Shown piece after piece: positions 3,879 through 27,705 of a DNA stretch of 64,000 nt. The stretch's first letter is position 1; every line of letters starts with the position of its first letter. The translations under genes were made by a program, and so were the position numbers. Origin of the DNA: Candidatus Eiseniibacteriota bacterium (GTDB lineage Bacteria > Eisenbacteria > RBG-16-71-46); the NCBI GenBank assembly GCA_963725865.1, contig CAVSAC010000014.1:485422-549421 (forward strand), written 5' to 3'. Below the pieces are notes generated by a model. The model was not told the origin of the DNA and did not search any database. It saw only the letters and a list, made by a program, of their open reading frames with translations.

Positions 3879-6401
3879 ATGGACTTCTTCGCGCGGCAGG
3901 AGACCGCCCGCGCGCAGACGCGCTGGCTGATCGCGCTGTTCGTGCTGGCGGTGATCGTCGTGGACCTCGCGGTGACGGTCGTGCTCGTGGTGCTGCTCGC
4001 GGGCGGGCTGGGTCGCCAGGCCGCGCTCGCCGATCCCGCCCGCTGGCTGGCCAGCAACGCGCCCGAGCTCGCGCTGTGCGCGCTGGCGGTGCTCGCGATC
4101 GTCCTCGGCGGTGCGGCCGCCAAGTCGCTCCAGCTGCAGGGCGGCGGCGCCGTGGTGGCGCGCCTGATGGGCGCCGACCTGGTGGACCGCAACACGACCG
4201 ACCCGGCCAAGAAGCGGCTGCTGAACGTGGTCGAGGAGATGGCGCTGGCCTCCGGCGTGCCGGTGCCGGCGGTCTACGTCATGGAGGGCGAGGGCGGCAT
4301 CAACGCGTTCGCGGCGGGTCACACCGCGGCCGATTCGGTGGTCACGGTCACGCGCGGCGCGCTCGACCGCTTCGACCGCGACCGAGCTCCAGGGCGTCGT
4401 CGCCCACGAGTTCAGCCACATCCTGAACGGCGACATGCGGCTCAACCTGCGGCTCATCGGGCTGGTCGCGGGGCTGTTCGCGATCGCGACCGTCGGGCGC
4501 CTGCTGCTGCGCGGCGGCTCCCGCAGCCGCAAGGGCGGCGGGATCGCGCTGGCCGGTCTCGCCATCGTGGTGCTCGGCTACGTGGGCGTGATGTTCGGCC
4601 GCATGATCCAGGCGGCGATCTCGCGCCAGCGCGAGTTCCTGGCCGACGCCTCGGCGGTGCAGTTCACGCGCGACCCGCAGGGGCTGCGCGACGCGCTGGT
4701 CCTGGTGGGCGCCTCGCGAGACGGGCTCGCGCGTGCCACGCCGACGAAGCGCATGAGGTCGCGCACATGTTCTTCGCCTCCGGATTGTCGGGCGCTGTTC
4801 GCCACCCACCCGCCGCTGGCGGATCGCATCCGCGCGCTCGACCCGTCGTTCCGAGCCCGAGGAGTTCGAGCGCGTCGCCGAGCGCCTGCAGGCCCGCGCG
4901 CCGGCATCCGCCGCGGCGCCCGCGCACGCCGTCGCGGGCGCGGACTTCGTCGACGCCGCGACCCGCATCGTGCTGGGTTCCGCCGCCGTCGCCGCGAGCG
5001 TGGGGAATCCGCGCGCGCCCCACGTGCGCCACGCCGCACTTCTGCGCGATGCGATGCCCGCGGGGCTGGCGGCCGACGCGGCCGATCCCGCGACCGCGCG
5101 CGCGCTGCTGGTCGCGCTGGTCGGCGCCGCGACCGGCACGTCCCCCGAGCGCCGCACCGAAGCGCTCGCGAGCGCGTTTGGCGCCGACGTGGCCGCCGCG
5201 GCCGCGCAGCGGTCCGACCTCGACACGCTGGCGGAGGATCAGCGTCTGCCGCTGCTGCTCCAGCTCATCCCCGCGCTCGGGCGCCTGCCGCTCGCCGACC
5301 GCCAGGCCCTGATCGCAGGCATCGACCAGATGATGCGCGCCGACGGCACCATCACGCTCCCTGAGTACGCGCTCGCCCGGCTCGCGCGCGTGCACCTCGG
5401 CGAGCAGGCCGCGCCGCGCACAGGCGCCTCGCAGGCCACGCTGCTCCAGCTCGAGGCGGACCTCCAGGTGCTGTTCTCGACGCTCGCCCGGTGCGGACAC
5501 GCGCGCGAGGAGGATGCGAGGAACGCCTATGAGCGCGGCCTCACGCGGGCGCTGCCCGGGCGCCGCGCGCCCTTCCAGCCGCTGGCGGACTGGGTGCCGG
5601 CGATGGACGCCGCGCTCGACCGGCTCGACCGCCTGCGGCCGGCGGACAAGCAGCGACTGATCGACGCGCTGGCGATCATCGTGGCGCACGACGGCGCGCT
5701 CGAGCTGGCCGAGGCGGAGATGCTGCGCGCGGTGTGCGGTTCGCTCCACTGCCCACTGCCACCGTTCGATGGGCATCGGGACCGCGACGGCCCCCGGCGG
5801 CCTCGCCGCGGGGATCGGGATGCTGGCGGCCGACCAGCGGCTGCCGCTGCTGCTGCAGGCGATCCCGGCGCTCGGGCGCCTGCCGCTCGCCGACCGCCAG
5901 GAGCTGATCGCCGGCATCGATCGCGCGGTGCGTGCCGACGGGGTCATCACGCTCTCGGAGTACGCGCTCGCCCGCCTCGCGCGCGTACACCTGGGCGAGC
6001 AGATCGCGCCGCCCGCGGGCGCCTCGCAGGCCACGCTGCTCCAGCTCGAATCCGAGATCCAGGTGGTGTTCTCGACGCTCGCGCACGGCGGCCATGCCCG
6101 TGAGGCCGACGCGAAGGACGCCTATGAGCGCGGCCTCATGCGCGCGCTGCCGGGGCGGCGCGCGCCCTACCAGCCGGTGGCGGACTGGGTGCCCGCGATG
6201 GACGCGGCCCTCGACCGGCTCGACCGCCTGCGTCCGGCCGACAAGGAGCGGCTGGTCGACGCGCTGGGGATCATCGTGTCGCACGACGGCGAGCTGGAGC
6301 TGGTCGAGGCGGAGCTGCTGCGCGCGATGTGCGGCTCGCTCCACTGTCCGCTGCCGCCGTTCGTGGATGCCGACGAGGCGTCGGCCCGCGAGCGGGCGTG
6401 A
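3879..6401 (+). CDS. M48 (HtpX-like) zinc metalloprotease with duplicated C-terminal TerB-like region; broken by several frameshifts
   Basis: 'MDFFARQE' start, 'INAFAAG', HEFSH zincin motif (~4405), 'SRQREFLADASAVQFTR', 'ATHPPL'. Pieces are split over ORFs 3879, 4435, 4970 and 5769. Confidence 0.85.
5228..6363 (+). repeat. Diverged tandem duplication of a ~541 bp coding unit (5228-5768 and 5823-6363)
   Basis: Both units translate as LA.DQRLPLLLQ.IPALGRLPLADRQ ... LRA.CGSLHCPLPPF, with many substitutions between them. Confidence 0.95.
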
Positions 6402-8306: not shown

Positions 8307-11106
8307 CCGGCGCGTCGGCGTCACTTCAGAAGACTGGCATCCCAATTCTGCACGAGGTGGAGCGAGGTGTGGGGGAGACCAGGGCCCGGAGTCGCGACCA
8401 GGAAACGAGTGCCGTCGGGCGAGGGGCACGTCCCTCGGCTCTCGTCCGGCAAGCGAAAGAGCGTGGTGGTGGGTCCGGGGCGGTAGCCGCCGGGTGCCGG
8501 CAGGAGCGCCATGGAGCGCAAAGTCTGATTGTCCGTGGCGACGAAGATCAGTTGGTTCCCGACCGCCCAGACAGAGTGCCGACTGGAGGGGGCATACCCG
8601 CAGCCGTCGCTGGTCAGGCGTACCGCGTGGTGACGCTCCGGGAAATCGTCGAGGTAGAGTTCCTTTCGTCCGCTGGCGTCCGAGACGAAGACGGCGTGGT
8701 GCCCGTCCGGAAGGATCGCCAGATCCGACTCGTCGGCTGAGCTCGCCGCGTAGGCCCGTTCGAGCCTCGGTCTCGCGGCGTTGTACAGCATCAGGTCCCC
8801 CCGGCCGTTCGAAGCTCCGCGCACGAGCACGAACAGCTTGCCGCCCGGAGCCGCCACGATTAGGTCGCCGAATTGGGCTCCGGATATCAGCACCCCGTAT
8901 GCCGACGGGTCATCCGGGCTCATGATGCGATTCTCCCGCCCACCCTCCTCTCCCGAGGCGTAGAGGATCCTGGTGCCATCGGCGGACCAGATGGGCCAAC
9001 TGTTCCATGCCTTGGGATCGGTGAGCCTCGCAACCGCACCCGTTCCCAGGTCTGCCAGCCAAAGGCACGTCTCGTATCCCTCGATCCGCCGGGTGATAAG
9101 TTGCCGCCCCGTCGCATCGAGGCTGTGGGCGATGCACGGCCCCTCCAGTCGCACGACCACGCCTCCCGGAAGGCCTGCACGCGTGTACCAGCGGTATTCC
9201 GTTGCACGCTGATCCTCAGGGTAATAGACCATCGTGGGTCCGGCGACCAGCGCGATCGGGGTGGCGGGGAACGGCACCTGCAACGCGGGACTCTCGGCCA
9301 AGGCCGCGGGTTCGCCGATCAGTCGGCGGCCCTGCAAGTCGACCTGCTGCGTCAGCAGGGCATCGTCTCGCAGGAAGACGAGCCGGCCGCGTCCGTCAGA
9401 TCTCGGCGAGCTCTGCGCCAGCAGCAGCACCCTGTCTGATCGGCCGACCAGGTCGCCCACATGGATGCTGTAGAGGTTCGGTTGAACGGGGGGGTAGGCC
9501 GCGAAGAGAAAGTGACGCCCATCGGGAAGCAGTTCGGGGAAGATGTGGCCCACCTCGTGCCGGCCTTCGTCGAGCATCGTTGCTGGCTCCGGCGTCCCTC
9601 CGCTTGCTCGAACACGCATCAGGGGGCCACCGGATTCTCGGCCGTACACGATCCACCCGTCCGGTGTCCAAAAGCCGCCGACGTAGCCCGTGGCATCGCA
9701 TATCACCTGAACGGTGCCATCGGCGACCTTGATGCGGACCAGCTTGTTGTCCCCCGAGCGGAAGGCAATTTCGCGCGAGTCCGGGGACCAGATCGGATAC
9801 TCCACGTTTCGACTGGTTCCGATCAGGCGAGGCCGGACCTCATCGAGGCGTCGTACAAAGATGGCCGAATCGCCGCGTGTCAGCGCTACGGACCTTCCGT
9901 CTGGCGAAAGCGCATACTCATTCTGCCAAGGTGCCCACTCGAAGGTGAGTTGCGTCTTGATCGGGGCCGCGCCCCGCTGCGTGGCCCATGGTCGAAGCGC
10001 GAGCGCGCCGGCTCCGAGCGAAACCAGTCCCGCCAGCGTTCCGATCAGGAGCGGCGCCAGGAGCGCACGCCGGTTCGCCCTTCCCACGACCGTGTCGCTC
10101 GCGGCGCCTCCCGGCGCTGCCAGGCGGCGGAGTTCCCGCGCCAGGTCCGCCGCATTCTGCCAGCGCAGGTCGGGGTCCTTGGACAAACACGTTCGGATGA
10201 GACTTTCGAACGCGCTGAAGCCCGCCGTGCCCACGTTTGGGAGCGGTGGCGGTTCGGCGGTGAGGATGGCCGCCGCCAGGCTCGCCGTGGATCCCGCTTC
10301 AAAGGCACGACGGCCCGCGACCATTTCGAACATCGTCGCGCCCAGAGCCCAGAGATCCGAGCGCGCGTCGGCGGATTGACCCTGCAACAGTTCGGGCGCC
10401 GTGTAGGGCAGCGTGCCGACCAGCGTGTTCGAGGCCGAGAGGGCGGCGGGCTCGGTCGGCGACTGAGAGAGTCTCTCTTCCGCCCCGCCGGCGTCGCGAA
10501 GCAATCGCGCGAGTCCGAAGTCCATGAGCTTGACCCCGGTCTTCGTGATCATGATGTTGCCGGGCTTCAGGTCGCGGTGGAGGATCCCGGCGCGGTGCGC
10601 CCGGGCGAGTGCCTCGGCCGTCTGAGCGCTGAACTCCAGCGCTTCGGCGAGCCTCAGCGGTCCTCTCTCGATCCGCGCGGCGAGCGTCTCGCCCTCCACA
10701 AGTTCGAGGACGAGGTAGTCGATGCCCTCCGCCTGCCCGACGTCGTGAAGCACGCAGATGTGCGGGTGGCTGAGCGACGCGACAGCGCGCGCCTCGCGCT
10801 CGAAGCGGGCGCGCGCATCGGGGCTCGACACAAGGTGGCCGGCCAGCACCTTGAGGGCGACGTCCCGCCCCAGGCGGCTGTCGCGCGCCCGGTAGACCTC
10901 GCCCATGCCTCCGGCGCCGAGCGCTGAAAGGATCTGGTATGGGCCAAGTGTGGTTCCGACCTTGATTGGCACTGTGCGCCTCGCAGTCACGGCCGCCGCG
11001 ATGGACCCGATACCCGCAAGCGTCAGGCAGCATAGCAACGATTCCGTGGGCCCCACCACGGCTTCCCGGGGGCGCCCGGCCACGCTGCACTTGCCGCTGT
11101 CGGCCG
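8253..11106 (+). repeat. 28-bp direct repeat pair (8253-8280 and 11079-11106) flanking the kinase cargo gene
   Basis: GCGACGCTGCACTTGCCCCTGTCGGCCG vs GCCACGCTGCACTTGCCGCTGTCGGCCG: 26/28 identical, both differences at codon third positions, both encoding ATLHLPLSA. Confidence 0.85.
8321..10972 (-). CDS. Ser/Thr protein kinase with C-terminal TolB/PD40-like beta-propeller
   Basis: GTG start after GAGG; 'LGPYQILSALGAGGMGEVYRARD', HRDLKPGN, DFG, TM helix, then 'LSPDGRSVA', 'PIWSPDSREIAF' and 'PDGRHFLF' repeats. Lower GC than the flanks. Confidence 0.93.
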   Translation of the reverse strand: MPIKVGTTLGPYQILSALGAGGMGEVYRARDSRLGRDVALKVLAGHLVSSPDARARFEREARAVASLSHPHICVLHDVGQAEGIDYLVLELVEGETLAARIERGPLRLAEALEFSAQTAEALARAHRAGILHRDLKPGNIMITKTGVKLMDFGLARLLRDAGGAEERLSQSPTEPAALSASNTLVGTLPYTAPELLQGQSADARSDLWALGATMFEMVAGRRAFEAGSTASLAAAILTAEPPPLPNVGTAGFSAFESLIRTCLSKDPDLRWQNAADLARELRRLAAPGGAASDTVVGRANRRALLAPLLIGTLAGLVSLGAGALALRPWATQRGAAPIKTQLTFEWAPWQNEYALSPDGRSVALTRGDSAIFVRRLDEVRPRLIGTSRNVEYPIWSPDSREIAFRSGDNKLVRIKVADGTVQVICDATGYVGGFWTPDGWIVYGRESGGPLMRVRASGGTPEPATMLDEGRHEVGHIFPELLPDGRHFLFAAYPPVQPNLYSIHVGDLVGRSDRVLLLAQSSPRSDGRGRLVFLRDDALLTQQVDLQGRRLIGEPAALAESPALQVPFPATPIALVAGPTMVYYPEDQRATEYRWYTRAGLPGGVVVRLEGPCIAHSLDATGRQLITRRIEGYETCLWLADLGTGAVARLTDPKAWNSWPIWSADGTRILYASGEEGGRENRIMSPDDPSAYGVLISGAQFGDLIVAAPGGKLFVLVRGASNGRGDLMLYNAARPRLERAYAASSADESDLAILPDGHHAVFVSDASGRKELYLDDFPERHHAVRLTSDGCGYAPSSRHSVWAVGNQLIFVATDNQTLRSMALLPAPGGYRPGPTTTLFRLPDESRGTCPSPDGTRFLVATPGPGLPHTSLHLVQNWDASLLK

Positions 11107-11176
11107 CCGCGGACCGGGGCTAGACTCCGGAGCATCCTCGCAGCCCTTCTGATTCAACCCCCTTCGGAGGTGTGCC

Positions 11177-11278
11177 ATGTCCAGCCGCGAACACGCGATG
11201 TTCATTGCTTCGTGGGAGCACGAGGCCAAGTCCACGGTCAAGCTCCTGAACGCCCTTCCCGCCGACAAGTACGACTTC
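11177..11278 (+). pseudogene. DinB-family gene, 5' fragment
   Basis: GGAGGT RBS plus MSSREHAMFIASWEHEAKSTVKLLNALPADKYDF, typical of DinB/YfiT N-termini; then the sequence switches to IS DNA. Confidence 0.6.
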
Positions 11279-11294
11279 CCGCCGCGGTGCGCGC

Positions 11295-11470
11295 CTACCC
11301 CGCCGCCGCTTCCGCCCACGGTCCCGCGCGCGCCTCCACCCGGCGCCGCTCGAGGTGCGCGAGGATGCGCGTGACCACCACCGGCTCGGTCCAGCCGCGC
11401 CGCCGGCTGGCGTACGCCCCGTAGTGGCGCACCCGTACCTCGCCCTTCGCCGGGATGTGCCGCACCAGTC
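11295..11470 (-). mobile_element. Second IS91-family transposase remnant with internal deletion
   Basis: Homologous to 6793-6889 (..RILAHLERRRVEARAGPWAEAAAG*) joined directly to sequence homologous to 7081-7160 (..HIPAKGEVRV..YGAYASRRRGW). Confidence 0.85.
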
Positions 11471-11598
11471 TCTCACTCGCGGTACAGCGTCCACGGCGTG
11501 GTCACGTCGTACACGCCAGCGACACCGCGCAGTCCCCCAACGACCGCGGGCGCGAGGCTCGCGCCCCGCGCCCGCTCCATGCCGCTCCGGCTCCGCGT

Positions 11599-11892
11599 CT
11601 AAGCGTCGCTCTTCGGCCTGAGCCCCTCCGGCACCTCGCCGACCGCGTCGGCGAGCACCGTGGCCTGGTTGTTCGAGACCTCGAAGAACCCCCCGCTCAC
11701 CTGCATCGTGAACTCGGCGCCGTCCGGCCGCCGCAGCATGAGCGCGCCCTGCGCGAGTGCCGTCACCAGCGCGGCGTGATGCGCCAGCACCCCGAGCGAG
11801 CCCTCGGTGCCCGGCACCTGCACGTACTCCACCGGGCCCTCGAACACCGAGCGCTCGGGCGTCAGGATCGACAGCTGGAAGCTCGTCCCCAT
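11599..11892 (-). CDS. atpC: ATP synthase epsilon subunit, second copy with a different C-terminus
   Basis: Near-identical to 15455-15745 except the tail (GLRPKSDA vs GLTTEPR). Confidence 0.85.
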   Translation of the reverse strand: MGTSFQLSILTPERSVFEGPVEYVQVPGTEGSLGVLAHHAALVTALAQGALMLRRPDGAEFTMQVSGGFFEVSNNQATVLADAVGEVPEGLRPKSDA

Positions 11893-24012: not shown

Positions 24013-26352
24013 ATGCCGAAGCGAGCGATCCGACCCGTGCGCACCACGCGCGCCGCAACCCCGAGGAAGGCACCCGCGCGCCACGCCCGCCCCGCGACGA
24101 AGCGCGCGGGCGGCTATCCCGTCACGCTGCGCACCGCCGATCGCACGCTGCGCTTCACGGCGCCGCCGGCGCTCGCGCGCGAGGCGATGCAGTGGACCTA
24201 CCGCCTGCGCAACCGACTCCGTTGGAAGGACAGCACCGAGTCGCGGCGGCGCCTCGCGCAGCAGAGCGTCGATTCGCTGGTCTCGCTCGGGATCTCGGAG
24301 GCGGACCTCACGGTGCTGGCGCAGGCCTCGCTGATCGAGGTCACGGTGCCGTGGCTCCCGAAGGGTGATCCGTGGGAGGCGCGCGTCTTCCCGTGGGAGT
24401 TCATGCTCGCGAGCGCCACGCGCCGCAAGGGCCGCTCCGGCCCGCTCCTGGTCGTGCGCCGTCTCGAGCGGCGCGGCGCGCCCGCCGCGCCGCCTCCGCT
24501 CGGCAGGCGCGCGCCGGTGGTGCTGTTCGTCGAGAGCGCGCCGGGGGCGCTGCGCGACCTGTACGACTTCGATTCCGAGCGCGAGCTGGTGCGCAGCGCG
24601 CTCGCGCCGTGCGCGTTCCAGGTCTGCGTGGATCCCTCGCCGGAACAGTTGGCCGCTGCCGCGGCAAAGCACCAGCCGGACCTCGTGCACCTCGCCGGCT
24701 TCGACACCCATCAGGGCCGCGAGCTGCTGCTCGAACAAGATCCCGCCGGGCTCCCGGATGCGGCGAACGATGCGGAGGCCGCGAAGGCGTTCGAGCGCGA
24801 CGGCTATCTGCTCGGACGCGGCCGCCAGGCGGTGGCGCTGCCCGCCGAGGCGCTCGCCGAGGCGCTCAACTCGGGCCGGCGGCCGCTGCGGATGGTGGGC
24901 TGCAATCTCTACAGCTCGGCGGCCCGCATCGCGTCGATGCTGATCGCCCGCGGCGCGGGCACGGCGCTCGGCTTCCAGGACCTGCAGGACGACGCGCTCA
25001 TGGAGCTGTTCTTTGGGCGCTTCTACCGCGCATGGCGCAGCGGGGCCGGCGACGCGCTCGCCGGCTTCCACGCCGGCTGGGACGCGCTGCGCGCCCAGCC
25101 CCGCGACCTGCAGGGCACCAGCGTGACGCTGTGGAGCGCCGCCTCGGTGGTCGCGAGGGCGCGCACCGCGCAGTCCGTGGTGCGGCGCCTGGCGGGCGAG
25201 GAACAGCGGGTGCTCGCGCCGCCGCGCACCGGAGCGCTCGACTGGGTGCAGGTCGAGGTGGAGCCGCGCGAGGTCATCAACTACGCGCTGCTCCACAACC
25301 ATCGCAGCCTGTTCGATCGCTTCCTGCTCCACTGGACGCGGCCCGGGCGCCTCACCGACGTCTCGGTCGAGGTCGAGCTGATGGTGGGCGCCGAGCGGCT
25401 GAGCTACCGCAGCACCATCGCTCCCGAGCGCAGCCCGCACGATCTGTCGCGCGACGTGCGCGTGCCGCTCGCCTGGTCGCTGGCGCGCACGCTGCACGAG
25501 TCGGTGCGCACCACGCTCTACGTGGACGTGCGCTGGCAGGGCCGCGTGCTGCGCCGCGACACGCTCGACGTCACGCTGCTGCCGGTGAGCGAGTGGCACG
25601 ACACGCCCGAGGACGATCCGTGGCTGCCTTCGTTCGTGCTGCCGCGCGATCCGGCGGTGCTGCGCATCGTCGATCACGCGCAGCGCTACCTGGTGGCGCT
25701 CGACGACGACCCGACGGCGGGGTTCGACGGCTACCAGAGCTACGACCGCGCCGACCACGGCGCCGCGGTGGATCGACGCGTGCAGGCGCTGTGGTACGCG
25801 CTCACGCAGGACCTGATGCTCGGCTACATCGACCCGCCGCCCACCTACAGTGCCGAGTCCCAGCGGCTGCGCACGCCCTCCGAGGTCCTGAACGGCAGGC
25901 GCGGCACGTGCATCGACCTCGCGCTGCTGTTCGCGTCGTGCCTCGAGTTCGTCGACATCTACCCGGTGATCTTCCTGCGCGACGATCACGCCTTCCCGGG
26001 CTACTGGCGCGATCCGGAGGCCCACGACGAGCGATTCGCGCGCATGTACGAGTCCGACGACGGGGGCACCGCCCAGGGCGACGACGCCCGCGGCCAGTCC
26101 GAGGCGTGGACGCTCGGGCCCGACAACTACGACGAGGTGCATCGCCTCGTGCACTCGGGACGCATCGTCCCGCTCGAGACCGTCGACCTCACCTCGCGCA
26201 CCAGCTTCGAGCAGGCGTGCAAGGACGGCCGCGCGGACGTCAACCAGCGCGAGGGGTTCGCGTCGATGCTCGACATCGCGCTCGCGCGCGCCCACAACGT
26301 GACACCGCTGCCGTTCCCGGAGGGCCCGACGCTTGAGCGCCGCCCGGGATGA
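24013..26352 (+). CDS. CHAT/caspase-like domain (apparently inactive) fused to a transglutaminase-like Cys-His domain
   Basis: 'RVFPWEFM', 'VLFVESAP', 'PDLVHLAGF', 'MVGCNLYSS' are CHAT-like. 'QRLRTPSEVL...GTCIDLALLFASCLE...DHAFPGYW...PLET' is transglutaminase-like. Confidence 0.7.
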   Translation: MPKRAIRPVRTTRAATPRKAPARHARPATKRAGGYPVTLRTADRTLRFTAPPALAREAMQWTYRLRNRLRWKDSTESRRRLAQQSVDSLVSLGISEADLTVLAQASLIEVTVPWLPKGDPWEARVFPWEFMLASATRRKGRSGPLLVVRRLERRGAPAAPPPLGRRAPVVLFVESAPGALRDLYDFDSERELVRSALAPCAFQVCVDPSPEQLAAAAAKHQPDLVHLAGFDTHQGRELLLEQDPAGLPDAANDAEAAKAFERDGYLLGRGRQAVALPAEALAEALNSGRRPLRMVGCNLYSSAARIASMLIARGAGTALGFQDLQDDALMELFFGRFYRAWRSGAGDALAGFHAGWDALRAQPRDLQGTSVTLWSAASVVARARTAQSVVRRLAGEEQRVLAPPRTGALDWVQVEVEPREVINYALLHNHRSLFDRFLLHWTRPGRLTDVSVEVELMVGAERLSYRSTIAPERSPHDLSRDVRVPLAWSLARTLHESVRTTLYVDVRWQGRVLRRDTLDVTLLPVSEWHDTPEDDPWLPSFVLPRDPAVLRIVDHAQRYLVALDDDPTAGFDGYQSYDRADHGAAVDRRVQALWYALTQDLMLGYIDPPPTYSAESQRLRTPSEVLNGRRGTCIDLALLFASCLEFVDIYPVIFLRDDHAFPGYWRDPEAHDERFARMYESDDGGTAQGDDARGQSEAWTLGPDNYDEVHRLVHSGRIVPLETVDLTSRTSFEQACKDGRADVNQREGFASMLDIALARAHNVTPLPFPEGPTLERRPG

Positions 26353-27656
26353 GCGGATCGAGCGCCTGCGCGAGGTCGCGCGGTCGTCGACGCACGGACT
26401 GGGACGGAGCGGGAGCGCGCGGCGCGCCGGGGCCGGCGCGGGGCCGCGGCGCGCGCGCCGCGGGCCCGCCGAGCCGCCCCTGCTGCGGCTCACGTTGGTG
26501 GACGAGGACGGCGTGCTCGCGTGGGTCGAGGACGGGCCGCCGCAGCCGCGCGTGACGCGGCGGCGCATGCGCCGCGGCCGGCTCGGCGCCGAGCCGAGCG
26601 GGCCCGGTCGAGATCCACGCGATCGAGTTCGAGCGCCTCGCCCCGAGCGAGATCACGAGCCACCTCGACACGCTCGACCTCAAGCTCACGCCGCAGCGCG
26701 GGCTGCGGCGCCTGCAGGGCGGCGCGCTGGTGCCGGTGAAGCGCCCCAGCGCCCGCGCCGGGCAGCGCGTGCTGTTGATCGTGCACGGCACGTTCAGCCA
26801 CGGCGAGGCGATCACCGACGACCTCGCGGCGGCGCCCGGCGGGCCCGAGTTCCTCGCGGCGCTGGCGGCGACCTACGCCGAAGTGCTGACGTTCGACCAT
26901 CCCACGCTCGCCGTGAGCCCGCTGCTCAACGCGTTCGACCTCGAGCGCGCGCTCGCCGGCTGCCCGGCCACGTTCGACGTGGTGGCGCACAGTCGCGGCG
27001 GGCTGGTGGCGCGCGCGTGGGCGGAGGCGTTCCGTGGCGGCACGCGCGGCGTGCGGCGGCTGGTGCTGGTGGGCTCGCCGCTCGCGGGCACCAGCCTCGC
27101 CGCGCCACCGCGGCTGCGCGAGGCGCTCCAGTACGTCTCGAACGTGGGCGGGGCGCTCGCGGGGCTGTTGGGCGCGGCCAACCCGTTCCTCGCGCTGGGC
27201 GCCGGCCTGATGCAGATCGTGACCTCGATCACCTCGCTGGTGGCGCACACGCCGCTGCTCGACGCGGCGGTCGCCCTGGTCCCGGGCCTCGCCGCGCAGT
27301 CGCGGGTGGGCAATGCGCCCGAGATCCTGCGCATGCGCGCGGCCGGCGCGCTGCCGACCGCGCGCGTGTTCGCGGTGCGCGCGGACTTCGAGCCGCCGCC
27401 GGTGGGCTGGGCGTTCTGGAAGCTGTTCGTGCAGGCGAAGCAGCGGCTCGCCGACGTGGGCGCGGACCTGCTGTTCCCGGGCGCGAACGATCTGGTGGTG
27501 GACTACGACTCGGTGGTGAGCCTCGCCGACGATCGCAGCGTCCCGGCCGCGCAGTGCCGGGACTTCGGCACCCAGAACACGGTCCACCACTGCAACTACT
27601 TCCGCCAGCGCGAGACCGTGAAGTTCCTGTCCGAGGTGCTGCTGCGCGAGCCGTGA
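26333..27656 (+). CDS. Alpha/beta-hydrolase (lipase-like) with N-terminal extension; one frameshift near 26605
   Basis: 'IVHGTFS', 'FDHPTL', nucleophile elbow 'VAHSRGGLVAR', 'NDLVVD', 'VHHCNYF'. TTG start overlaps the upstream stop. Confidence 0.8.
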
Positions 27657-27705
27657 GGCGGCGCGGCACGCCGCCCGCTCCGGCCGCCCGCGCGGATGGC
27701 GCGGC

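What the first reader, a model, noticed from the sequence alone, without database searches (positions are those of the whole stretch)
24013..27656. Two-gene module: pseudo-caspase (CHAT) + transglutaminase-like protein coupled to a lipase-like hydrolase
Seen: gene 1 has CHAT-like motifs, but the catalytic positions look substituted (H-x-A-G-H-G > HLAGFD; N-A-C > NLY). Its C-terminal domain keeps an intact Cys-His set (GTCIDL...DHAFPG...LET) like the transglutaminase-fold domains of DUF4011-type helicases. Gene 2 overlaps it by 20 bp and has a full Ser-Asp-His triad plus a ~130-aa N-terminal extension. The pair sits between housekeeping genes (yajQ, SRPBCC). Known: caspase-like proteases activate effectors in bacterial defence, and lipases act as cell-death effectors. 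Inference: a possible undescribed conflict or programmed-death system in which a dead-caspase scaffold and a papain-fold enzyme control a membrane-damaging hydrolase.
Basis: partly seen in the sequence, partly recalled or inferred. Interest (0 to 1): 0.68.

Follow-up and report, generated by a model that had tools for sequence, protein, structure and literature searches.

The report
Dead-caspase/transglutaminase protein paired with latent lipase
This is a widespread but uncharacterised two-gene bacterial module, in which a large protein (a catalytically dead caspase-like domain plus an intact transglutaminase-like cysteine enzyme domain also found in the ProA anti-phage protein) sits next to a lipase-like hydrolase carrying an arginine-rich pro-domain; it probably works as a licensed cell-damaging effector, but in this window the lipase gene is broken by a 1-base frameshift.

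Summary
The domain calls are confirmed. Gene 1 (24013-26352, 779 aa) has a CHAT/caspase fold in which both catalytic residues are replaced in every relative examined. It is followed by a beta-sandwich and a transglutaminase/PNGase-like domain with invariant Cys633-His659-Glu722. That C-terminal module is homologous to the N-terminus of the ~1900-aa anti-phage helicase-nuclease ProA (NCBIfam E 2e-52). Gene 2 is a DUF7379 lipase-like alpha/beta hydrolase with an intact Ser-Asp-His triad.

It is not one ORF here. The ~90 N-terminal codons (26333-~26600) and the rest (26601-27656) lie in different frames. Removing one G restores a 440-aa protein like its relatives. Another gene in the window needs at least four frame switches, so an assembly error is likely.

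The pair is a real unit. Gene 2 follows gene 1 in 70 of 82 loci across several phyla, often with an ATGA overlap, and no third gene is conserved. A zincin or an active caspase sometimes replaces it.

The best reading, which is an inference, is a protease-effector-type module. The latent lipase would be licensed at two Arg-rich loops of its pro-domain. There is no consistent defence-island context and no PADLOC hit. I rate it a new variant of a known kind.

The parts
24013..26352 (+). Gene 1, 779 aa: pseudo-CHAT + beta-sandwich + transglutaminase-like protein
   Evidence: ORF. Full-length relatives of 56-62% identity and lower. AF2 model with pLDDT 86.6.
24013..24105 (+). Basic (K/R/P/A-rich) disordered N-terminal tail, aa 1-31
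   Evidence: pLDDT below 50. Variable in length and composition across relatives.
24118..24432 (+). N-terminal domain, aa 36-140, with near-invariant RNRxRW and FPWE motifs
   Evidence: Alignment A1. AF2 secondary structure.
24448..25137 (+). CHAT/caspase-fold domain, aa 146-375, with the catalytic dyad replaced (F230 at the His position, 24700-24702; Y300 at the Cys position, 24910-24912)
   Evidence: Pfam CHAT E 0.004 for the window and 27 of 40 relatives at E<=0.01. 8tl0 alignment. Foldseek: SAVED-CHAT E 1e-8, Csx29, separase, caspase-11. The His position is never H and the Cys position never C in 81 + 145 sequences.
25246..25602 (+). Ig-like beta-sandwich, aa 412-530
   Evidence: AF2 strands. 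Part of the stretch that matches ProA positions 1-244.
25615..26307 (+). Transglutaminase/PNGase-like papain-fold domain, aa 535-765; Cys633 (25909-25911), His659 (25987-25989), Glu722 (26176-26178)
   Evidence: C633 and H659 are invariant and E722 is invariant or nearly so. Foldseek hits PNGase 2f4m/3esw and TG2/TG3. DUF553 in 7 of 40 relatives. ProA keeps the same Cys, His and Glu.
26333..26602 (+). Gene 2, 5' part (frame 2): first part of the pro-domain, with two Arg-rich loops (RRARRG, RRRMRRG) flanking the hairpin LLRLTLVDEDGVLAWV
   Evidence: Frame-2 translation matches L081/L082 and P0042-P0045. Loop composition.
26596..26607 (+). Frameshift site (one extra base in or next to GGGCCCGG)
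   Evidence: Frames 2 and 0 both read G-P here. Homologues read AEGPVEVH.
26601..27656 (+). Gene 2, 3' part (frame 0): end of the pro-domain plus the DUF7379 lipase-like alpha/beta hydrolase; Ser 26991-26993, Asp 27489-27491, His 27588-27590. The called ORF is only 26730-27656.
   Evidence: PF24096, 114 bits against a cut-off of 33. Alignment A2. AF2 of relative P0043 and Foldseek to family I.5/I.1 lipases.

Best explanation
The locus encodes a conserved, translationally coupled two-gene module of the 'regulator plus latent effector' kind.

Gene 1 is a cytoplasmic multidomain protein. Its caspase-like (CHAT) domain has lost both catalytic residues and probably serves as a docking or regulatory scaffold. 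Its C-terminal beta-sandwich plus transglutaminase-like domain keeps an invariant Cys-His-Glu centre and is the same module that heads the anti-phage helicase-nuclease ProA.

Gene 2 is a lipase-like Ser-Asp-His hydrolase held behind a ~135-aa N-terminal pro-domain. That pro-domain has two disordered Arg-rich loops, often with R-G.

Proposed mechanism: on a trigger, possibly infection or envelope stress, gene 1 licenses the hydrolase. The most likely route is cutting at the Arg-rich loops with its papain-fold Cys-His centre. The freed lipase then attacks membrane lipids and stops or kills the cell.

Shown: domain identities, loss of the dyad, conservation of the triads, synteny, gene overlap and co-variation.

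Inferred: cleavage, which domain does the cutting, the trigger, the lipid substrate and any defence role.

The frameshift in the window copy is probably an assembly error.
For: - Synteny: gene 2 lies directly downstream in 66 of 80 species-level loci by tblastn, and in 70 of 82 by clustering. No other gene is conserved.
- Coupling: the start of gene 2 overlaps the stop of gene 1 as ATGA in 33 of 64 loci with a start near the gene 1 stop.
- Co-variation: pairwise identities of the two genes correlate, r = 0.90 over 64 loci.
- Effector swapping: in four loci the downstream slot holds a zincin (HExxH) or a C14 caspase with an intact dyad instead.
- The fold and motif evidence for both proteins is given under parts.
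- Link to defence: the ProA N-terminal module is homologous and keeps Cys, His and Glu.
- Pro-domain: the loops are 21-23% Arg against 8.9% overall.
- Precedent: a caspase-associated alpha/beta-hydrolase zymogen is activated by two R|G cuts (PMC12642450).
- Distribution: the family is patchy across Gemmatimonadota, Acidobacteriota, Planctomycetota, Burkholderiales, Xanthomonadales and Rhizobiales. There are 1192 clusters at E<=1e-30.
Against: - Neither protein hits PADLOC.
- Flanking genes are heterogeneous and mostly housekeeping. Only scattered single hits to defence models were found. The window context is also housekeeping.
- No relatives were found in 2.9 million viral contigs.
- The only caspase-like domain present is catalytically dead, so the published caspase-cleavage mechanism cannot apply as such.
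- Peptidase activity of the transglutaminase-like domain is unproven. It could instead be a sensor, a deamidase or a transamidase.
- R-G is present in only 43 of 91 and 62 of 91 loops.
- Homology of DUF7379 to the published LcHydrolase could not be tested.
- In Pelomonas/Roseateles the locus is stably syntenic, which also fits an ordinary physiological role.
- The window copy is frameshifted.
Confidence: 0.45

Rival explanations
1. The architecture is the same but there is no proteolysis. The transglutaminase-like module acts as a sensor or protein-modifying enzyme (deamidase, transamidase or ligand binder, as it may in ProA). Gene 1 then activates or tethers the hydrolase allosterically through its pro-domain.
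For: - The module sits at the N-terminus of ProA, where a sensing or regulatory role is plausible.
- Its structural neighbours are PNGase and transglutaminases, which are not peptidases.
- R-G is not universal in the loops.
Against: - An invariant Cys-His-Glu centre argues for catalysis.
- Many bacterial transglutaminase-like domains are annotated as peptidases (established knowledge).
- The closest functional precedent is activation by cleavage.
Confidence: 0.2
2. This is an ordinary physiological enzyme pair, for example regulated lipid or envelope remodelling or a stress response, and not a conflict or cell-death system.
For: - The neighbourhoods are housekeeping or heterogeneous.
- There are no PADLOC hits.
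- The locus is stably syntenic across Pelomonas/Roseateles species.
- It is absent from viral contigs.
Against: - The distribution is patchy across phyla, with about 245 of 185,579 species genomes carrying a relative.
- In L016 the pair has a GC3 of 0.72 against 0.46-0.66 for its neighbours, which suggests transfer.
- Protease effectors sometimes fill the same slot.
- The module is shared with an anti-phage protein.
Confidence: 0.25
3. The window copy is a decaying pseudogene. The frameshift is real and only gene 1, or neither gene, is functional in this organism.
For: - The frameshift is present in the deposited assembly, and the database gene call is 308 aa.
- No reads could be laid on the site.
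Against: - Both halves keep strong similarity to relatives (74-78% identity) and all catalytic residues.
- There is a single 1-nt indel in a G3C3G2 run.
- The M48-like peptidase gene at 3879-6103 needs at least four frame switches while its motifs are kept. This points to an indel-prone assembly.
- Another long-contig MAG, L051, has a split gene 2 as well.
Confidence: 0.15

Closest known systems
Protease-associated alpha/beta-hydrolase zymogen modules (LcCaspase/LcHydrolase of Lysobacter capsici; Evans et al. 2025, PMC12642450)
   Same: An adjacent caspase-like protein and a lipase-like alpha/beta hydrolase. The hydrolase carries two Arg-containing sites (R|G) whose cleavage unleashes toxicity. 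Sensors and effectors are exchanged in a modular way.
   Different: Here the caspase-like domain has lost His and Cys in every member. The Arg-rich loops lie in a separate ~135-aa N-terminal pro-domain and not inside the hydrolase core. The hydrolase is ~440 aa (DUF7379) against ~295 aa. A transglutaminase-like domain is fused to the partner. Sequence homology to LcHydrolase could not be tested.
ProA anti-phage helicase-nuclease (NCBIfam NF058533; for example WP_302074231.1 on Klebsiella plasmid pLY161)
   Same: The beta-sandwich plus transglutaminase-like module is shared, with LPSFxxPxDPAV, DGYxS, TC[IL]D, HAFxGxW and the xET motif. It shows 28% identity over ~350 aa with Cys, His and Glu conserved.
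   Different: ProA continues into DUF4011, an SF1 helicase, an MTES_1575 nuclease and DUF3320. Gene 1 has none of these and carries a pseudo-CHAT domain instead. Gene 1 scores 178 bits against a cut-off of 1500.
CHAT proteases (SAVED-CHAT 8tl0, Csx29/Craspase, separase, DdvA)
   Same: The same fold and the same motif positions.
   Different: The catalytic dyad is absent, so the domain is not a protease. In this respect it is comparable to pseudo-caspases such as cFLIP (established knowledge).
Bacterial true lipases, families I.5 and I.1 (Geobacillus T1/L1, Pseudomonas and Burkholderia lipases), and PlaF
   Same: An alpha/beta fold with a helical lid, an AHSxG-type nucleophile elbow and a Ser-Asp-His triad.
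   Different: Only 12-16% identity. Gene 2 is cytoplasmic, has no signal peptide and carries an N-terminal pro-domain. Its substrate is unknown.

Membership tests
CHAT domain (PF12770, clan CD caspase-like peptidases) | Caspase/haemoglobinase fold | tested here: met
   AF2 plus Foldseek: 8tl0 E 1e-8, Csx29, separase and caspase-11, all with probability ~1.0.
CHAT domain (PF12770, clan CD caspase-like peptidases) | Pfam gathering score | tested here: not met
   The window protein scores 17 bits against a cut-off of 24. 27 of 40 relatives match at E<=0.01, the best at 1e-9.
CHAT domain (PF12770, clan CD caspase-like peptidases) | Catalytic His-Cys dyad | tested here: not met
   The His position holds F, V, I, M, L, C, A or Y. 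The Cys position holds Y, W, F, H, E, Q, G, N or S. Neither is ever His or Cys in 81 + 145 sequences.
Transglutaminase-like / PNGase papain-fold superfamily | Cys at a helix N-terminus, His on the next strand and an acidic third residue | tested here: met
   C633 and H659 are 100% conserved and E722 at least 99%. The secondary-structure positions fit. The third residue is Glu, not Asp.
Transglutaminase-like / PNGase papain-fold superfamily | Fold or profile match | tested here: inconclusive
   Foldseek hits PNGase 2f4m and 3esw at probability 0.98-1.0 but E ~6e-3 and low TM-scores for the multidomain query. Pfam DUF553 scores 13.6 bits against a cut-off of 20.5 for the window, and 7 of 40 relatives match, down to E 5e-6.
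ProA anti-phage protein (NF058533) | Equivalog score over the whole 1903-position model, including the helicase and nuclease parts | tested here: not met
   178 bits against a cut-off of 1500. Only model positions 1-244 are matched. A true ProA scores 2224 bits.
ProA anti-phage protein (NF058533) | Shared N-terminal beta-sandwich plus TGase-like module | tested here: met
   E 2e-52 to the model. BLASTP E 1e-25 with Cys, His and Glu aligned. 82 plasmid records match.
DUF7379 (PF24096) | Pfam gathering score | tested here: met
   114 bits against a cut-off of 33. All listed relatives carry PF24096.
Alpha/beta-hydrolase lipases and esterases | Nucleophile elbow, Ser-Asp-His triad and fold with a lid | tested here: met
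   AHSRGG, NDLVVD and VHHCNY are conserved. Foldseek hits family I.5 lipases at E 4e-8, using close relative P0043.
Alpha/beta-hydrolase lipases and esterases | Lipolytic activity | not testable with these tools
   Needs an enzyme assay.
Protease-activated alpha/beta-hydrolase defence module (PMC12642450) | A catalytically active adjacent protease | tested here: inconclusive
   The caspase-like domain is dead. A papain-fold Cys-His-Glu centre is present, but its peptidase activity is unproven.
Protease-activated alpha/beta-hydrolase defence module (PMC12642450) | Two conserved R|G cleavage sites | tested here: inconclusive
   There are two Arg-rich loops. RR or RxR occurs in 89 of 91 and RR in 81 of 91; RG in 43 of 91 and 62 of 91. 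The window has RRARRG and RRRMRRG.
Protease-activated alpha/beta-hydrolase defence module (PMC12642450) | Homology to LcHydrolase; toxicity after cleavage; phage defence | not testable with these tools
   The sequence is not in the held text and no supplement is held. The phenotypes need experiments.
Catalogued anti-phage systems (PADLOC-DB 2.0) | A match to any system model | tested here: not met
   No family at E<=1 for either protein.

The most novel reading that the evidence does not exclude
This would be a new licensing logic for bacterial death effectors. A papain-fold transglutaminase-like enzyme, scaffolded by a pseudo-caspase, takes over the role that active caspases play elsewhere. 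It activates a latent cytoplasmic lipase, or in some lineages a caspase or a zincin. The same beta-sandwich/TGase module would act as a transferable trigger-sensing head in ProA helicase-nucleases.
Probability: 0.3. Interest if true: 0.8.

Novelty: new variant of a known kind. Interest (0 to 1): 0.6.

Why it matters
If the proposed mechanism is right, the module extends the newly recognised 'proteolysis-gated effector' logic of prokaryotic immunity to a system whose caspase has become a pseudo-enzyme. It would be a bacterial parallel to cFLIP-type pseudo-caspases.

It would also assign a first function to a family with more than 1,000 clusters at 50% identity, to Pfam DUF7379, and to the unannotated N-terminal module of ProA.

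The pair is present in cultivable strains, so it is directly testable. These include Stieleria neptunia Enr13x, Pelomonas/Roseateles species, Tahibacter soli, Bradyrhizobium sp. and Rhizobacter sp. OV335.

Tried and rejected
- Reads and contigs from four public runs were laid on 25800-27700. None covered 26504-26695, so the frameshift could not be settled.
- PADLOC models on both proteins gave nothing.
- Rfam and the promoter/terminator scans on 22-29 kb gave nothing.
- A scan of viral contigs for gene 1 relatives found none.
- Literature searches for DUF7379, for CHAT + transglutaminase + lipase, and for ProA found no description of this pair and no primary ProA paper in the library.
- The LcHydrolase sequence was sought in the preprint's supplements, but none is held.
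- H233 (HQG), shifted by three residues, was considered as a replacement catalytic His, and S302 as a replacement nucleophile. H233 is absent in 15 of 81 and 44 of 145 sequences, so it is rejected as a general catalytic residue. S302 is conserved but sits two residues past the Cys position, more likely as a helix cap. This remains open.
- The alternative downstream partners were checked for the gene 2 pro-domain. They do not share it.
- The ATG at 26349, which would give the canonical ATGA overlap, was considered as the gene 2 start. It is in frame 0, but the frame-0 translation up to the stop near 26553 looks non-coding, while the frame-2 translation matches relatives. It is rejected in favour of TTG 26333.
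- The GC3 frame scan gave many shadow-frame flags. Only two places were interpretable: the gene 2 site and the M48 gene.
Full report
**What is in the window.**
Gene 1 is an intact ORF at 24013-26352 on the + strand, 779 aa. The longer ORF from 23935 adds 26 residues that relatives lack.

- From TTG 26333 the frame-2 translation reads LSAARDERIERLREV...RRARRGPAEPPLLRLTLVDEDGVLAWVEDG...RRRMRRGRLGAEPSG. This matches the N-termini of the closest relatives.
- From about 26601 the similarity continues in frame 0 as GPVEIHAIEFERLAPSEITSHLDTLDLKLTP....
- The switch lies in or beside GGGCCCGG at 26600-26607. Removing one G yields a 440-aa ORF, against 438-451 aa in the four closest relatives.
- The database gene call for this contig is the truncated 308-aa ORF from GTG 26730.

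No public read or contig covered the site, so the frameshift could not be tested directly. However, an M48-like peptidase gene at 3879-6103 in the same window needs at least four frame switches, while its motifs (GINAFA, AHEFSHILNGD, SRQREFLADASAVQFTRDP, THPPLADRI) stay intact. A gene 2 homologue in another MAG assembled into very long contigs (L051) is also split across frames. An indel-prone assembly is therefore the likelier cause. A genuine pseudogene is not excluded.

**Gene 1.**
The AlphaFold2 model from 40 relatives is confident (mean pLDDT 86.6, pTM 0.76). It shows the following parts:
- a disordered basic tail (aa 1-31);
- a small N-terminal domain (aa 36-140) with near-invariant RNRxRW and FPWE motifs;
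- a caspase-fold domain (aa 146-375);
- a beta-sandwich (aa 412-530);
- an alpha+beta domain (aa 535-765).

*Caspase-like domain.* Foldseek against the PDB puts the N-terminal half with CHAT and caspase proteases. The hits are SAVED-CHAT 8tl0 (E 1e-8), Csx29, separase, caspase-11, DdvA and C11 peptidases. Sequence evidence is weak for the window protein alone: Pfam CHAT E 0.004 at 17 bits against a cut-off of 24, and 8tl0 at E 0.005. It holds at family level, with 27 of 40 relatives hitting CHAT, the best at 1e-9.

The HMMER alignment to 8tl0 places HLAGFD on HFIGHG and NLY on NAC. Across 81 species-level sequences and 145 independent 50%-identity representatives:
- the catalytic His position is always hydrophobic (F, V, I, L, M, C, A or Y);
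- the catalytic Cys position is Y, W, F, H, E, Q, G, N or S;
- neither is ever His or Cys.

H226, G229 and D231 stay invariant or nearly so, which suggests a retained, non-catalytic site.

*Transglutaminase-like domain.* Foldseek puts the C-terminal part with PNGase and transglutaminases. Cys633 and His659 are conserved in all 226 sequences, and Glu722 in all but two.

**Link to ProA.**
NCBIfam matches gene 1 residues 423-673 to positions 1-244 of NF058533, 'anti-phage protein ProA' (E 2e-52). The score is 178 bits, far below the equivalog cut-off of 1500.

A tblastn search with aa 412-779 found 82 plasmid records. Nearly all listed hits are at the N-termini of genes annotated as DUF3320-domain proteins or DNA helicase; a few lack annotation.

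One of them, on Klebsiella variicola pLY161, is a bona fide ProA (2224 bits). It has DUF4011, an SF1 helicase, an MTES_1575 nuclease and DUF3320 downstream of this module. BLASTP gives 28% identity over about 350 residues, with the Cys, His and Glu aligned.

It is also the only direct tie to anti-phage defence. I could not find the primary ProA paper in the library, so that name rests on NCBIfam.

**Gene 2.**
The frame-0 part is a strong DUF7379 match (114 bits against a cut-off of 33). Relatives are 420-460 aa, and more than 1,800 were found.

Conserved motifs are VHGTFS, [AC]HSRGG (an AHSxG-type nucleophile elbow), NDLVVD and VHHxNYF. All are present in the window.

The model of the 74%-identical relative P0043 (pLDDT 85, pTM 0.88) resembles true bacterial lipases of families I.5 and I.1, and PlaF. 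The top hit is E 4e-8, at 12-16% identity.

The first ~135 residues form a separate small domain made of two helices, a hairpin, a strand, a helix and two strands. The hairpin is flanked by two poorly ordered loops that are 23% and 21% Arg, against 8.9% overall. RR or RxR occurs in 89 of 91 first loops and RR in 81 of 91 second loops. R-G occurs in 43 of 91 and 62 of 91. The window has RRARRG and RRRMRRG.

**Is the pair a unit?**
The evidence says yes.
- A scan of one genome per species found 245 relatives of gene 1. They come from Gemmatimonadota, Acidobacteriota, Planctomycetota, Burkholderiales, Xanthomonadales/Lysobacterales, Rhizobiales and others.
- In the best 80 loci, a gene 2 homologue lies immediately downstream on the same strand in 66.
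- By clustering of all ORFs, gene 1 and gene 2 are the only families conserved across loci, gene 2 in 70 of 82. The next real families belong to Pelomonas/Roseateles synteny only.
- The gene 2 start overlaps the gene 1 stop as ATGA in 33 of 64 loci with a start near the gene 1 stop. The closest relatives overlap by 14-17 nt.
- Pairwise identities of the two proteins correlate over 64 loci (Pearson 0.90, Spearman 0.73). This is not corrected for species phylogeny.
- Looked up from the gene 2 side, Stieleria neptunia and a Blastocatellia genome again show a 754-812-aa gene directly upstream.

In a few loci with room downstream the slot is filled differently. Two Acidobacteria (L005, L013) have an HExxH zincin. 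Two Gemmatimonas (L026, L027) have a C14 caspase with intact YFSGHG and SDACR motifs. These partners lack the gene 2 pro-domain. L003, L033 and L068 have no obvious partner.

**Context.**
In the window the pair sits between NUDIX and yajQ on one side, and an SRPBCC gene, a secreted CarboxypepD_reg protein, a Kef-type transporter and an M20 peptidase on the other. There is no compositional break.

Across 34 loci the two genes on each side are heterogeneous: GNAT acetyltransferases, HTH regulators, transporters and metabolic enzymes. Only scattered single hits to defence models were found.

Neither protein hits PADLOC. No relative occurs in viral contigs. The defence-island criterion is therefore not met.

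**Mechanism.**
The closest functional precedent is the caspase-associated alpha/beta-hydrolase zymogen of Lysobacter capsici. It is cut twice after Arg (R|G) by its neighbouring caspase, and this unleashes toxicity (PMC12642450).

The present pair has the same cast with a twist. The caspase-like domain is dead, an invariant papain-fold Cys-His-Glu centre is fused to it, and the Arg-rich loops lie in a detachable pro-domain.

I therefore favour licensing of a latent lipase by gene 1. Most probably the transglutaminase-like domain cleaves at the Arg loops, with the pseudo-CHAT domain acting as docking scaffold (confidence 0.45).

The rivals are:
- non-proteolytic activation or modification (0.2);
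- an ordinary physiological lipid or envelope function (0.25);
- as a separate question, that this particular copy is a pseudogene (0.15).

None of the steps from trigger to lipid hydrolysis is shown.

**Novelty.**
Both families are catalogued only as CHAT-like hypothetical proteins and as DUF7379. I found no paper on the pair. It is best described as a new variant of the protease-effector kind, not as categorically new.

Noticed in passing
window 3879-6103 (+): An M48-like (HtpX-type) peptidase gene is readable only by switching frame at least four times, near 4380, 4760, 4830 and 4880. Conserved motifs, including AHEFSHILNGD, are intact in each piece. This suggests an indel-prone assembly.
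   Followed up: partly
window 4970-6401 (+): Two overlapping ORFs (4970-6103 and 5769-6401) carry near-duplicate ~190-aa segments (DQRLPLLLQxIPALGRLPLADRQxLIAGID ... LHCPLPPF). This is a tandem domain or gene duplication downstream of the M48 gene.
   Followed up: no
L005:10225-11859, L013:10348-11904, L026:10100-12256, L027:10171-12060: In these relatives the slot downstream of gene 1 holds an HExxH zincin (weak M36 match) or a C14 caspase with an intact His/Cys dyad, instead of the DUF7379 hydrolase. The caspase shows a weak NCBIfam similarity to 'caspase, EACC1-associated type'.
   Followed up: partly
L084:1-4460: In a Blastocatellia genome the pair is preceded by a patatin gene, a Peptidase_C14 gene, a Y4kD_C gene and a faint MBL-fold gene. 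This may be a neighbouring protease-effector cluster.
   Followed up: no
L016:7944-11482: In a Candidatus Thiodiazotropha MAG the pair has a GC3 of 0.72 while neighbouring genes have 0.46-0.66. This is consistent with horizontal acquisition.
   Followed up: no
L051:10625-11648: The gene 2 homologue in another long-contig MAG is also split into two frames (10625-11242 and 11247-11648).
   Followed up: no
L081:1-1532: The closest relative with genomic context (a Candidatus Eisenbacteria MAG) has RHS/YD-shell repeat genes directly upstream of the pair.
   Followed up: no
L085:2695-14808: The bona fide ProA gene on Klebsiella variicola plasmid pLY161 lies among IS1 and IS110 transposases and an AbiJ-NTD4 gene.
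   Followed up: no
window 26349-26352: An ATGA (ATG overlapping the gene 1 stop) is present, as in many relatives. Here it is in the frame of the hydrolase part (frame 0), while the homologous N-terminal sequence is in frame 2. A second compensating indel upstream cannot be excluded.
   Followed up: partly
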